From Paraspadella gotoi (taxonomy: Eukaryota > Animalia > Chaetognatha), in contig CM119264.1 of the NCBI GenBank assembly GCA_051294375.1, positions 27,382,430 through 27,446,429 on the forward strand: a DNA stretch of 64,000 bases, read 5' to 3'. Position 1 is the stretch's first letter; every line of letters begins with the position of its first letter. A program made the position numbers and the translations under genes. The notes beneath the pieces were generated by a model. It was given only the letters and a program-made list of their open reading frames with translations. It had not been told where the DNA came from and did no database searches. Positions 43,058-49,000 of the stretch are shown here, piece after piece.

Positions 43058-46000
43058 TCATCCGATCAAATTGACACCAACTTCTTCGTCCACTTGACGC
43101 GGCGTCGTTTTTCCCGAGGCCGTCGACGAAACGAGCGTGACCGAAGACCCGGCGGCGCTGGACGCTTCGGACGACGCCGGGGCATGGAGCAGAGACGCGA
43201 TGAGCGGCGCCGCTTCGTCCGGCGTCATTTCTGCGGCCTCTTTCGGCGGTTCGTCAAAAGTGAAGGTCGGAGCGAGGTAAACCGGTGGGGTTCCTTCTTG
43301 CGCCGGCGCTGAATCTTCGTCTGTCATCGCTTCCTCTTCCTCCTCTTCTTCCTCCTCTTCTTCCTCCTCTTCCCCTTCGTCCAAAAAGTCGCAAAACGTC
43401 TGCCTCGAATCCACGACCGACTTGGGCCAGCCTCTCCCGAGGACAGACACCTCCTCGATCTCCGGTCGCGCGGAACGGACGAGCCACTCGGCGTCTTCGG
43501 AGGAGGCGGCAATGGACGCCGCCGACGTCGTCGTCGACGATTCGTCGGAGGGAACGTCAAAGGAGCCTCTGCGGGGAAGATGGCGTGGAGGAGGTTGTGA
43601 TCTCTCCGCCATCGAGGCGAGGGATTGGCGCGGTGGAGTGAGGGATAGAGATTGGTGCGGAAGCGTTGGGCAGAGAGATTGGCGCGAAGGATCAGCGTCA
43701 AAATCTGGATGCCGTGGAGGATCTCGACGAGGCGGCGGCGAGGGCGGCGGCGGGACGCGAGGAGGGCGGAGGAAGCGCGAAGAGGGCGCCGGCGGCGGTC
43801 GGCGTGGCGAGAGGCGCTGCGCGTGTCGCTGCGAATGGCGCGGCGCCCGAAACGCCCCTCGCGCCGTCATGGACGGGCGTGGATGTGGCGGCGTCATTTC
43901 CGTGGCGTCGTTTCGTCGATCGATACGAGAATTGACGAAGAAGTCGCCGTCAGAGTTTCCGCCAGGGTCGACGTTGGCTGGAATATCCGAAGGCGTCGGA
44001 AATCTCGGTTCCGGTCCCAACCCGCGTTGGGCTCGAGGTCGAACGATCTCAACGCTAGTGGTGTCTCTGAAATGAGAGGAGACATGTTTGCAATCTTTGC
44101 TTCTGATATTTAAGAAATTACCTGAATTTCAAATATTATTTGCAATTATTATTAATTATTAATTATTATATTAAAGAAGGATTCAACATTAATTACGTAT
44201 TTAAAATTGCAGGAAACGTTAACTGGGTAATTAAAATAGCATTTAGCGTTAATTACGTATTTAAATAAGATGTAAAATTAACCTCGCTTTAATTTTATAC
44301 GCCATTCAGGTACATCATTAACTTACCTTTTATCACTTTCCCCGCTGCGGCGACCGACCAAGCTCCTCTCCGAATCCGCGTCTCGCGACGACGACGACGA
44401 AATGCTTGTGGGCGTGGCCTTTTCGCCGACGACGACGCCGAACGCGCCGACGGGTGAGTCGTCGGCCGAAGATCCTCCAGTGAGTCCGGAAGACGGCGCC
44501 GGCGAAGTCAAACGTCTCGTCGGGTCCAGTCGGCCGAGCCTTTCCGCTTCTCTCCACGAAGCGGACGAGCCTCTAAAGTTTCGATAAATTTCCGGCGAGA
44601 TGGAATCCTGAGAGGCGAAGGTCCGGCGTTCAACGGAGTTTCGGTCGGCGTCGCTCGATGCCGAGGAATCGGCGCGATGTTCCGGCGACCGGGCGGAAGA
44701 GACAAAGTCCGAGCGACGAATGTCCGAGATTTGAGAAACGCTGCGCGGGAAACGAGGCGATCGAGAATTCGGCGGCCGAAAGCGAGATCCTCGAGTCGGA
44801 GTGGCTCGTCCGGGACGAGTGGGCGTGGCTGGGGAGAAAGGACTCCCGCGGCGAAGGGGGGCGTGGGCGGAGAGACGTTCCCAATGTTCGTCGGCGAAGT
44901 CTTCACGGTCACGATCGCGTGGGGAACCGAAGATGAAGGAAGATGCGCGATCGGCCGAGAGGCCGCGGAACGTTGGATGGAGGAAAGGCTGGAAGAGGAG
45001 GTTGGGAAAGGGGATTAGTTTCATTTGGGCCTTTTAATATTAAGTTGGTACAACCATTATAAAAATCATCCCTTCTCACTATCATGCTTTGGACAGGCTT
45101 TGGTGGTTTAAGGCCTCCATCACTCTTACAAGATAATGACGTAGCAGGTCCCTGCAAGCTTACGATCAAGACTCAAGACTATATAAGTGAAGTAAGTTTT
45201 TTTCGTAATGACAAAACGTCCGACATTCTTCATTTTAACGATTGCTTGTTTACTCCATAGAACTTTAAACACACGAGCATTCGTTCGTGCGTAGGCAAAA
45301 AAAATAATAAATGATTAAGTGTTTTATTCACTTCGGTTTAATAACCTCAACGTTTTATGTTTTATTTGAATTGAAAAGAGAACCTTATTTTTCCAAAGCG
45401 AAAACCACTGGGCAACTTGTAGCTTATTGAATTTTAAAATGTTTACATATTCTTCCTCTTATTAAATAAATTATATGATTAAAAAATGTATACAAAAATT
45501 AACTTCAACATCCTTTAAAAAAACGGAATAAAAATATAACCATACTTAATCAGAAAACGACAATATGTAAATGAGATTAAGGTACTCGATCTCCTGGAAT
45601 GAGCAACAATTTCTTCAAATTCCATTCACCTGAGGATCCTCCAAGACCTTGTCGTGATCGGGGAAGAGATCCGCGACCGCCTTGAGATACTCCCACGTCT
45701 CCAGCCTCGAGTCTGGACTCGTTAGATCGCGCTTCAAAGCCCCCAACTCTTTGTCGGGCGTCGGCGTCAGAAGCTTTAGCGGATGAGCGGTGGCCAGGCC
45801 GTTGACGGGGTTGTTGAGGAAAGCGCGGAGGGAAGGAAAGTCCTCGACTGAGGCCGTAGAGGTTTTGAGCGAGTGGTGCCAGAGAGCCAAGTTGAGGTAG
45901 TCGCATCTGGAGGAAGAAGTGAATCTGGAGTCACTGTGAATTTAGTGGGAATATTTAAACTCTTATTATTTAGATTATTTAGAAGAAATAGATAAATAAA

Positions 46001-49000
46001 GAAAGAACAATAACATCCGCCTCCCAGAAATAAAAAAAAAATATAAGAGTAAAAAGACTTCGTCTTTAATCTCAATAAGAATAAATAAATAAAATATAAA
46101 AAAATCAAAAACATATAAACAAAAAAATATAAATAAAGCAGTATCGGTAGTATTTCATACCCCGTTACTCGTTAAGACTTTAAATATTATTTTAAAATAT
46201 TATAAAATCTATAAAGATAGAATAATGAAACAAGTAATTTTGCAATTTTCATTTTAAAGTGTTCGCAATCAAATTTGGTTACCTTGCAGTTGCCTCCTCC
46301 CAAGCGGACCAAAGGGACGGAGCGAACGTCGGCGGGTTTTCCGACGTTCCGACGAAGGTGTCGTCGAACCAATCCAGGACGTCGACGATGCTGTAAACGC
46401 CGCCGCCGCCGCCGCCGCTGACGTCATTTACTCCGTCGCCAAGATCGAGCCCGCTGTCGCCGCCGTGGCTGCCGCAAGACGAAGGCGTCTTGACTCGACT
46501 CAAGTGCGACGCCGTGTCGACAGAGTTGTTCCGGACGACGCCGCTGACGCCGCGAGAACCGGCGACAAGAGACGAGGATCTTCGCGACGCCGTCGACGAG
46601 AATTCGCGCCGAAGTCGATGACGAACGATTTCGATTCCATCGCGGACGCGGTTGGAGGGCAAGAACGCCGTCGCTAGAAAGGTCAAAAGGTCAAAAGATC
46701 AAAAAAAAAGGTTAAAGAACAAAAGGTCAAAAGGTCAGAAGAACCAAAGGTTAAAAAATATAAAAAAATGTTCATAATAAAATGAAAATATTTTAAAAAG
46801 GTTTAAGATTTCAACTCTGGATTCTTGCCTGCAATGATTTTGAGGTAAAACTTGGCGTGATCATCGGGTGAAGACATTCGAGACCAAATTCCGTTGATGA
46901 AGTGAAAGATGGAAATCTTTCTTTGCGGAGTCGAGAGAACGTCGTAGAAACTGGAGGCGATCGCCTAAGGAATTATATTTGGATTTTATTCTATACATGA
47001 ATAAATGAATTAATGAATGAGTTAATAAATTAAATCATTAATGATGGAAGAATAAAACAATCTATTAAAGATAAATGAAAGATACAAATTGAGAAAAGCG
47101 AACACTTAAAATAGTAGAATTCAAAGATGAATATACGATTCAGAGTATTTAAGCAGTAATTAAGCAGTAATTAAGCAGTAATACCCTCGTGATTTCCGGG
47201 AAAAGATCAAACTGAATCTTCTCCACTCCCGGTTCAACGTCATTCGCTTTCAAAATGTCCAACATGGAAACGAAGAGAGATTCGAAGACTGGACCCGTTT
47301 TTTCTTCCGCTAAACTAAAGTTAATAGACATTATTAATATTATTACAATCAAATTTAAAAACAAAACGGGCTTTTCTCACCACAAGAGGGCGGGACGAAA
47401 AACGTCTCGCTTGACGACGCCGACGACGAAAACGTTGGGCGCCGAGTGAAAACGCAACTCTACGTCGCTTAGCAACCAGAGACGCGACGCCGCCAAGAGG
47501 GCGACGCCGTCGTCGTCGCCGAAGAGAACGACGCCAGTTCCACCGGAGACGTCGGCGCGTGAGAGAATCGGAAACGCTGTGAGGGGGGGGGGGTAGAAGT
47601 ATTAAAATAATTTTAAGCTAATAAGTTAAATAATAAACTATAAGTTAAGCTTTAATTACTGAGTCAAATTTAAGTCAATCTTTAAGTTAAGGTTTAAACG
47701 ATAAGTTAAGTTAAACTTTAAGTTTACGGGAAGCTAAGAATAAGTTAAGTTTTAAATTATGTATGCATTACTTGAATTCGAGGCGAATCGAATCTCTTGA
47801 AAAAATCTCTGGCGTTGGATTAATTTCTCTGTCGAGCAACTGAGGTTAATTCCATCGTCGTCGTCGTCGTTTTCGTCGTCGTTGTTGTCAGTGGCGTCGC
47901 CTTTGTGATCATCTTGATCATTTCCACGTTGGGAAAAAGTCGCCACGAATCCTGATTACGGGGAGGATAGTGTTATCATCATTTTTATACCATTTTTAAG
48001 AATAATTGACTATTAGTAAGTTTATTTCTTAGATTATATTAAGTGAGGCGAAACGGTCGAGAGCAGTTTCCACATTTTACGACTCGCCTCTATTTTCATT
48101 TCTTTTCTTTTCTTTTCTTTTCTTTTCTTTTCTTTTCTTTTCTTTTCTTTTCTTTTCTTTTCTTTTTTGTTTTCTTTTACCCGCATCTAATAACTCAGCG
48201 CTCCACTTCTCTTTCTTTGTTTTTTTTCTAATGACGAAACAGATGAGGACGACGACGACGACGACGACGACGAAGACGACGCCGGCGACGATGACGACCA
48301 ATGCTGGAATTTCGCAACCTCGACCGACGAATCCAAAGTCACATCTGCGGATTGAGTGAATAAGAGTTTTTAATTATAAATACATATATAAATTTAAAAG
48401 ATTATCAATTATAAAATATACTTTGAATCGGGTATTAATCGTGTTTAAAGACCTGCACGCCGGTTTATTTTCAGAGTCAACGTAGCAGGTAGCGTAGTTT
48501 TTGCAGCGCCCGCTGTACAAAACGCAGGGATCAGTAGAGATTCTAGAGACCAGACCTAAAAAATAAATGAAAAGAATATTCTCAGGTCGAGCAAAAAACT
48601 ATTTTTAATATAATCAACGTTGTCACTTGCCTCCGCGGATTCCGTCCACGTTGGAAACGAAATAATGATTCTTTAACGAAAATTTCAAACCGAACATTTG
48701 ATTGTCTTTTGTTTCTTTCGCGCGTCGATAGAGATGAGTAGCGATCCTAGTGAGCGACTCGAGCATTGTATCCTCTTTTGTTTTTATGAGATAAATTAGT
48801 GAAACGTCGCAATTTCTGTTAGAGGAAATTGTAAATATATATATATTTTTTAGCTTAATAACGTTTTTAAGTAAAGCTAAATAATGACCTTTTAGGAAGA
48901 GTCAACTGTCCCCTCGTTGGAAATGACCATGTCACATTTCGAATGCTGATGAAAAATATTAGCTCAATGTTAATGAATATTGAATAATGAGTGATCGCGT

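What the first reader, a model, noticed from the sequence alone, without database searches (positions are those of the whole stretch)
45630..48344. Membrane receptor whose cytoplasmic domain looks like a domesticated MULE (Mutator-like) transposase
Seen: the TM exon (48344-48181) splices in phase, through a 180-nt acidic linker exon, into five exons reading GVVLFGDDDGVALLAASRLWLLSD..VFRPALLCLAEEKTGPVFESLF..KIQFDLFPEITRAIASSF..KISIFHFINGIWSRM..ATAFLPSNRVRDGIE..VLDWFDDTFVG..PPTFAPSLWSAWE..RCDYLNLALWHHSLK..FPSLRAFLN..WEYLKAVA. Known: these blocks are collinear with animal MULE transposase motifs as I recall them (IF..L..L..W.xDGTF; P.xYALLPxK..Y..LF; TDFExAxxxA..F; GCxFHFxQxxWR; ALAFLP..V; LDYFExTWIG; PLFPPxxW; RTNNxxEGWH; HPxIWxFI; YLxAIA). 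Inference: a transposase catalytic fold was captured as the intracellular module of a discoidin/EGF/SEA receptor. Known MULE domestications (plant FAR1/FHY3, MUSTANG) are soluble nuclear factors; I know of no membrane-anchored case.
Basis: partly seen in the sequence, partly recalled or inferred. Interest (0 to 1): 0.93.

Follow-up and report, generated by a model that had tools for sequence, protein, structure and literature searches.

The report
Receptor with dead transposase inner domain
This animal gene encodes a predicted cell-surface receptor whose inner part is a Mutator-type jumping-gene enzyme that has lost a key cutting residue, is most likely spliced into the same message as the membrane anchor, and likely now serves as a protein-docking module for signalling.

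Summary
Observation confirmed; interpretation supported and sharpened. A profile from 88 independent MULE transposases matches the spliced core (HMMER 32 bits, P 2e-12; HHalign 97.5% local; shuffles at most 7.1%), with all five exons collinear. The core is dead: the catalytic Glu, RTNN and the Cys of CxxH are lost, and there is no FLYWCH finger or TIR, but 63 of 73 hydrophobic columns are kept. One RNA-like contig (2,783 nt) joins linker to MULE exon exactly. Under the model its ends fall in the TM (GTC)8 tract and the poly-Glu tract, so TM-to-tail on one transcript is strongly inferred; the TM-linker junction itself was not read. No orthologue, no dN/dS, no fold of the spliced domain, no function. 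Most likely a pseudo-transposase scaffold in a lectin/adhesion-type receptor. No printed membrane-anchored case was found. The scan had not noted this on other DNA; it holds only bacterial analogues.

The parts
52693..53371 (-). Exon 1: ATG, predicted signal peptide, discoidin-like (F5/8 type C) repeat 1
   Evidence: model; Atlas 0.96-0.97, mostly F5/8 type C clusters; relatives carry PF00754
52042..52290 (-). Exon 2: start of discoidin-like repeat 2 (acceptor could also be 52308, same frame)
   Evidence: repeats 1 and 2 are 35% identical, E 9e-23
50387..50474 (-). Exon 3: middle of repeat 2
50152..50318 (-). Exon 4: end of repeat 2
   Evidence: 45% identical over 69 aa to fragment P0104
49113..49845 (-). 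Exon 5: Cys-rich region, EGF and calcium-binding EGF repeats, start of SEA-like segment
   Evidence: Pfam EGF_CA E 2.9e-5, cEGF, EGF_3, all below the curated cut-offs
48631..48815 (-). Exon 6: rest of SEA-like segment (label recalled, no Pfam hit; GC donor)
48453..48555 (-). Exon 7: juxtamembrane EGF-like module
   Evidence: Cys pattern; Pfam FOLN E 0.004
48181..48344 (-). Exon 8: end of EGF, Val-rich TM helix (aa ~748-772), basic stop-transfer RKKTKK
   Evidence: hydropathy 3.77, the only internal hydrophobic segment; predicted start of contig 1 at 48271
47772..47951 (-). Exon 9: acidic linker, no in-frame Met
   Evidence: covered by contig 1 and joined to exon 10; Met positions
47381..47576 (-). 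Exon 10 (A): MULE core start, first catalytic Asp region (ambiguous, LLSDVELRF for DGTF)
   Evidence: HHalign E 4e-4 alone; covered by contig 1 with 0 differences
47185..47314 (-). Exon 11 (B): second Asp kept (D951), DFE degenerate
46829..46964 (-). Exon 12 (C): CxxH with Cys lost and H979 kept; GC donor
46283..46673 (-). Exon 13 (D): helical insertion domain with a Ser/Gly loop insertion; conserved W1125 kept
   Evidence: top MULE-profile hit of the window's six frames; HHalign E 2.6e-5 alone; loop position
45630..45906 (-). Exon 14 (E): RTNNxxEGWH replaced by CDYLNLALWHH (catalytic Glu lost); C-terminal helices
44327..44988 (-). Exon 15: basic Ser/Arg/Pro-rich tail, predicted disordered
43058..44066 (-). 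Exon 16: Pro-rich then acidic tail, poly-Glu, PPVY motif, stop
   Evidence: predicted end of contig 1 at 43347 in the poly-Glu repeat

Best explanation
This gene encodes a predicted single-pass receptor whose cytoplasmic side carries a MULE transposase core that has lost its catalytic glutamate, most likely on the same mRNA as the membrane anchor, and that core likely acts as a folded, non-enzymatic docking or dimerisation scaffold. Shown: the open spliced frame, MULE homology, loss of catalytic motifs, and the linker-to-MULE splice. Inferred history: a FLYWCH-type MULE lost its DNA-binding finger, TIRs and catalysis, gained introns and host codon use, and was joined behind the receptor's TM and linker exons, either directly or after a stage as a separate host gene (order not determined). 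Inferred function: the discoidin/EGF ectodomain binds glycans, lipids or matrix; clustering is relayed through the pseudo-transposase, much as pseudokinases do in other receptors (recalled analogy), to the Pro/Ser/Arg-rich tail with its PxxP, PPxY and many SP/TP sites.
For: Homology: HMMER 32.2 bits, P 2.3e-12; HHalign local 97.5%, E 5.7e-12, with 40 local shuffles at most 7.1% and the reversed sequence 0.1%; best matches of the five exons fall in profile order. Dead enzyme: 14 of 45 conserved columns kept, against a minimum of 29 and median of 43 in the 88 MULEs. In Muta1, mutating any DDE residue abolished transposition (PMC5225508, passages). Fold kept: 63 of 73 family-hydrophobic columns are hydrophobic, against 19 of 99 polar columns; 188 of 214 helix/strand residues align; the insertion lies in a loop between helices. 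Long host residence: four introns in the core; fourfold-site base use A/C/G/T 0.11/0.43/0.27/0.19 against 0.12/0.45/0.24/0.19 in the ectodomain. One transcript: the contig skips the 195-nt intron at GT..AG with no intron depth; its ends land in repeat tracts that make up 4.2% of the model CDS; there is no Met in the linker or exon A. Scaffold over DNA binder: no FLYWCH finger; net charge -9 against a median of +2.
Against: The TM-linker junction letters were not seen; the join is inferred from 91 nt of upstream contig. The evidence is one run whose RNA status is a guess. 0 of 5 exons hit Pfam, and the Atlas gave exon D no MULE hit. No orthologue, so purifying selection was not measured. The spliced domain was not folded. 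Net charge -9 lies inside the MULE range (-12 to +24), and the DNA-contacting His and Trp are kept. No experiment bears on function.
Confidence: 0.5

Rival explanations
1. Membrane-tethered nuclear factor: the same fusion, but shedding and intramembrane cleavage release the pseudo-transposase plus tail, which enters the nucleus and binds chromatin or partners (Notch/MUC1-like logic, recalled).
For: Val-rich TM, KKTK directly after the TM, juxtamembrane EGF and SEA-like segment, basic then acidic tail, PPVY. H979 and W1125 are kept; the equivalent residues are tied to DNA contact or positioning in Muta1 and Hermes (PMC5225508). Known MULE domestications FAR1/FHY3 are transcription factors (PMC8616336).
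Against: No DNA-binding finger; acidic core. The SEA-like segment reads RNCDV where a GSVVV-type cleavage motif (recalled) would be expected, and has no Pfam hit. A basic patch after a TM helix is normal for any type I protein.
Confidence: 0.2
2. Tolerated passenger: a MULE remnant was exonised into the receptor's cytoplasmic tail and is kept in frame only because the downstream tail is needed; the domain has no role of its own.
For: Only about 19-25% identity to the nearest MULEs; a long low-complexity insertion is tolerated; no orthologue found.
Against: Selective loss of catalytic residues with retention of the hydrophobic pattern and near-full collinear length fit selection on a fold. A spacer would be expected to drift to low complexity like the tail.
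Confidence: 0.15
3. Two genes: the receptor ends after the TM exon, and the linker/MULE/tail exons belong to a separate soluble domesticated gene whose first exon was not identified.
For: TM-linker junction letters not seen; one data set only.
Against: The contig has 91 nt upstream of the linker, which places its start exactly at the first base of the TM (GTC)8 tract and would encode VVVVVVVVLICFVIRKKTKK. The alignment extends by exactly the one base (G) that the TM exon's end shares with the acceptor. The contig does not follow the intron. No Met before residue 932.
Confidence: 0.08
4. An active or recently active MULE of a distant clade that captured receptor exons (Pack-MULE-like).
For: MULEs capture host fragments (PMC6446971, passages). 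My profile comes from one clade seeded by one motif.
Against: Catalytic Glu, RTN and Cys lost; no FLYWCH; the 25 longest of 30 inverted repeats in 44900-48400 are microsatellite or AT-rich pairs, with no TIR; host-like introns and codon use.
Confidence: 0.03

Closest known systems
FLYWCH-type animal MULE transposases (Pfam PF10551 + PF04500; Muta1 of Aedes aegypti, PMC5225508; e.g. P0001, P0074)
   Same: Collinear core from the first strand to the C-terminal YL helix; second Asp, His of CxxH, conserved Trp, WH and hydrophobic pattern kept.
   Different: Catalytic Glu, RTNN, Cys and DGTF context lost; no FLYWCH, no TIR; four introns; loop insertion; placed behind a TM helix.
Domesticated MULE genes FAR1/FHY3 and MUSTANG (PMC8616336, PMC6446971, passages)
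   Same: Host gene built on a MULE transposase domain; MUG7/8 also add a host domain (PB1).
   Different: These are plant factors that keep DNA-binding or zinc-finger parts (FAR1/FHY3 are described as transcription factors). This one is animal, has a signal peptide, ectodomain and TM, and lacks the finger.
Host-transposase fusion genes of tetrapods (Cosby et al., 10.1101/2020.05.07.082677; section 6 and passages read)
   Same: Transposase domain captured by splicing onto host exons.
   Different: [quoted passage not shown] The list of 55 host domains is in figures that I could not see.
Bacterial 7TMR-DISM plus IS1595 DNA-binding-head fusions and dead IS481-TPR proteins (unchecked scan notes e1-2444770, e1-1394250, e1-7290503)
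   Same: Idea of a transposase part reused in a receptor.
   Different: Prokaryotic, other transposase families; the membrane ones use the DNA-binding head, not the dead catalytic core.

Membership tests
MULE transposase (active) | Homology to the MULE DDE core | tested here: met
   HMMER P 2e-12 and HHalign 97.5-98.8% against 88 MULEs, with shuffle controls; seed protein has Pfam MULE E 1e-11. Single exons have no Pfam hit.
MULE transposase (active) | Intact D-D-E triad | tested here: not met
   Glu lost (aligns to Ala1141 or a gap); D951 kept; first Asp ambiguous (S886/D887).
MULE transposase (active) | CxxH motif and conserved Trp | tested here: inconclusive
   Cys lost (S976); H979 and W1125 kept.
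MULE transposase (active) | [quoted passage not shown] | tested here: not met
   Profile match begins at position 188-189 of 545; an acidic linker and TM lie upstream.
MULE transposase (active) | TIRs and 8-10 bp TSD | tested here: not met
   No TIR among the listed inverted repeats in 44900-48400; without element ends no TSD could be sought.
MULE transposase (active) | RNase H-like fold with helical insertion | tested here: inconclusive
   Indirect only: homologue P0001 folds at pLDDT 94 and best matches ISCth4 transposase, E 1.3e-4; the window's domain aligns to 188 of 214 of its helix/strand residues. The spliced domain itself was not folded.
Domesticated / host-transposase fusion gene | Host and transposase exons on one spliced transcript | tested here: met
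Domesticated / host-transposase fusion gene | Orthologues in other species under purifying selection | tested here: inconclusive
   None found by single-exon searches or among 12 discoidin-repeat relatives; sensitivity was low and dN/dS could not be computed.
Domesticated / host-transposase fusion gene | Single copy in the genome | not testable with these tools
   No genome is held; no second convincing copy in the window.
Type I membrane protein with discoidin/EGF ectodomain | Signal peptide plus one TM helix with basic stop-transfer | tested here: met
   Hydropathy scan finds only residues 1-19 and 751-769; no dedicated signal-peptide predictor was run.
Type I membrane protein with discoidin/EGF ectodomain | F5/8 type C and EGF domains | tested here: met
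   Atlas, relatives with PF00754, Pfam EGF_CA below cut-off. A direct Pfam scan of the repeat pieces was blank.
SEA-domain protein | SEA profile match and autocleavage motif | tested here: inconclusive
   No Pfam hit on the two halves scanned separately; the motif (recalled) is not evident.

The most novel reading that the evidence does not exclude
A transposase core has become the signalling domain of an animal cell-surface receptor: on ligand binding it is released from the membrane and carries the signal to the nucleus, a Notch-like pathway built from a transposon.
Probability: 0.17. Interest if true: 0.93.

Novelty: new variant of a known kind. Interest (0 to 1): 0.74.

Why it matters
In the papers that I read, transposase capture yields nuclear DNA-binding regulators. 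Here the part kept is the dead catalytic core, the DNA-binding finger is gone, and the host partner is a membrane receptor. If function is confirmed, DDE folds can be recycled as signalling or scaffold modules, like pseudokinases. It also shows a blind spot: split over five exons and about 20% identical to its kin, the domain is invisible to per-exon Pfam scans, so more cases may hide in invertebrate genomes. Limits: one species, no orthologue, no function.

Tried and rejected
Pfam on single exons: 0 of 5 MULE-like exons hit. Atlas on exon D: Sec8/cullin at 0.90 with low recognition, rejected as a chance helical match. Homologue searches with exon E (382 candidates, none at E<=0.1) and exon D (613 candidates, none at E<=10): weak negatives. 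Motif scan of viral contigs: 0 matches. Single-sequence fold of discoidin repeat 1: pLDDT 38.5, unusable; PDB sequence search with it gave only chance hits. Whole-genome search: no genome held. No listed run is on record as RNA; X1 is used only for the junction that it shows. Stop at 45615 as the gene end: possible as a minor form, but the contig length would then end in AT-rich intron at 44248 with no repeat to explain a break. A second MULE-profile hit at 18997-19305 (11.3 bits) gave only low-complexity Pfam matches and was dropped. From the profile set, 9 of 97 proteins were dropped (five by id as chimeric or partial, the rest under 290 aa). Literature searches without a membrane-anchored transposase case: listings; 0 papers each. 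Supplements and figures were not read and could list such a fusion. Scan look-ups by sequence, place and words found no counterpart.
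Full report
1. Observation. From the TM exon through a 180-nt acidic linker and five further exons the frame is open; the other frames have 13 and 17 stops. Extending both ways gives a 16-exon minus-strand model, 53371-43058, of 1,782 aa with no internal stop. 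All acceptors are AG and 13 of 15 donors are GT; two are GC. The junctions upstream of the TM and downstream of exon A were chosen by frame and splice consensus. Hydropathy finds only an N-terminal segment and one TM (751-769). The ectodomain has two repeats 35% identical to each other. The Atlas ranks repeat 1 mostly with F5/8 type C clusters at 0.95-0.97. A profile of the repeats found 12 relatives among 1.84 billion proteins; 3 of the 7 scanned carry PF00754, and 4 of the 7 looked up are from the krill Meganyctiphanes. EGF repeats score below Pfam's cut-offs. The SEA label is recalled and had no hit. The host is inferred to be an invertebrate animal; I did not identify it.

2. Is the cytoplasmic part a MULE? 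Single exons gave no Pfam hit (0 of 5) and the Atlas missed exon D. I therefore built an independent reference. A motif scan of metagenomes gave 120 loci; the five longest frames all hit Pfam MULE; one seeded a search that returned 97 proteins, most with PF10551 and many with FLYWCH, of which 88 made the profile. The spliced core scores 32.2 bits (P 2.3e-12). Of 1000 global and 1000 local shuffles, 249 each were reported, best 3.7 and 0.4 bits. HHalign gives 97.5% local (E 5.7e-12, 274 columns) and 98.8% global; 40 local shuffles reach at most 7.1% and 0.3%. The five exons' best matches fall in order along the profile, though B, C and E are individually weak. Exon D is the best hit among all six-frame segments of the window. 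Best pairwise identity is about 24%.

3. It is a pseudo-transposase. Only 14 of 45 highly conserved columns are kept, against a minimum of 29 among the 88. RTNNxxEGWH reads CDYLNLALWHH, so the catalytic Glu is gone; the Cys of CxxH is Ser; DGTF reads SDVELRF; D951, H979, W1125 and WH remain. In Muta1, mutating any of D214, D283 or E419 abolished transposition (PMC5225508, passages). No FLYWCH region aligns and no TIR is present. Yet the fold looks kept. Homologue P0001 folds at pLDDT 94 and best matches the ISCth4 transposase. Mapped on it, the window's domain covers 188 of 214 helix/strand residues, is hydrophobic at 63 of 73 family-hydrophobic columns against 19 of 99 polar ones, and its Ser/Gly insertion sits in a loop between two helices (the alignment itself favours such agreement). 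Four introns interrupt the core, and its fourfold-site base use matches the ectodomain's. Losing catalysis while keeping an open frame over 377 codons and the hydrophobic pattern points to selection for a host role (inference).

4. One transcript? One run (X1, RNA by guess) holds 0.42 of the region's words; the model predicts 0.45. Laid on 47362-47990, a 2,783-nt contig covers the linker and exon A, skips exactly the 195-nt GT..AG intron, and leaves the intron uncovered. It has 91 nt before the linker and 2,316 nt after exon A that do not follow the genome. Under the model, its start falls on the first base of the (GTC)8 tract in the TM exon and its end in the poly-Glu repeat of the last exon. 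Such tracts, where assembly graphs tend to break, make up 4.2% of the CDS. Each end tests a different part: the 5' end the TM-linker join, the 3' end the path through exons B to G. Neither the linker nor exon A has an in-frame Met. The TM-linker junction letters were not displayed, so that join is inferred, at about 0.9. A single unbranched contig suggests that the fused form is the main one in that run, but contigs drop rare forms.

5. Mechanism. Best reading (0.5): a lectin/adhesion-type receptor with a dead transposase core as docking or dimerisation scaffold ahead of a tail with PxxP, PPVY, RRxS and many SP/TP sites (25 on the cytoplasmic side). Rival (0.2): cleavage and nuclear action. 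It is favoured by the Val-rich TM, the KKTK motif and the kept His and Trp, and disfavoured by the missing finger and acidic core (-9, though inside the family's range of -12 to +24). A passenger (0.15), two genes (0.08) and a live element (0.03) are less likely. All functional steps are inferred.

6. Comparison and novelty. It works like a host-transposase fusion, a known kind, but it is not an active MULE. Known MULE domestications are FAR1/FHY3 and MUSTANG (PMC8616336, PMC6446971; passages). Tetrapod fusions mostly keep DNA-binding domains and join KRAB/SET/SCAN (10.1101/2020.05.07.082677; section 6 and passages; figures and supplements not seen). Term look-ups in PMC12062965, PMC10799480, 10.64898/2026.02.11.705288 and PMC13359780 (passages only) showed no membrane case, nor did searches; the library lacks most subscription papers. 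No orthologue was found, and 0 of 12 discoidin relatives carry a MULE match, most being short fragments; P0104 (45% over 69 aa) may be part of an orthologue. The scan's notes hold only bacterial analogues. Verdict: real, a new variant of a known kind, interest 0.74, held back by single-species evidence and untested function.

Noticed in passing
window 50667-51520 (+), inside intron 2 of the receptor gene: GC-richer island on the opposite strand with open frames of 169 and 187 aa and several ~33-nt tandem copies; no Pfam hit. Possibly a nested mobile-element remnant.
   Followed up: partly
window 48630 and 46828: Two of the gene's 15 introns have GC donors, more than is usual for animals (recalled).
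   Followed up: no
window ~34000-41500 (-): Downstream gene with two C2-like segments (weak Pfam E 0.02-0.06) and helical exons; it recalls Munc13-4/BAIAP3 (label from memory).
   Followed up: no
window ~29000-32750 (+): Cytochrome P450 gene (Pfam E 6.6e-13); it could place the host taxon.
   Followed up: no
window ~13900-17200 (-): MBOAT-family acyltransferase exons (Pfam E 6.4e-6).
   Followed up: no
protein P0104 (85 aa, ENA): 45% identical over 69 aa to exon 4 of the receptor; closest relative found, a possible orthologue fragment whose contig (843 nt) could not be fetched.
   Followed up: partly
proteins P0098-P0109: A divergent discoidin subfamily, seen in krill with C-type lectin, LDLa or Piezo-like parts; weakly or not recognised by Pfam.
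   Followed up: partly
window 47853-47898 and 48248-48293: The poly-Val TM codons (GTC)n and the poly-Asp linker codons (GAC)n are reverse complements and could pair in the mRNA; probably a by-product of codon bias.
   Followed up: no
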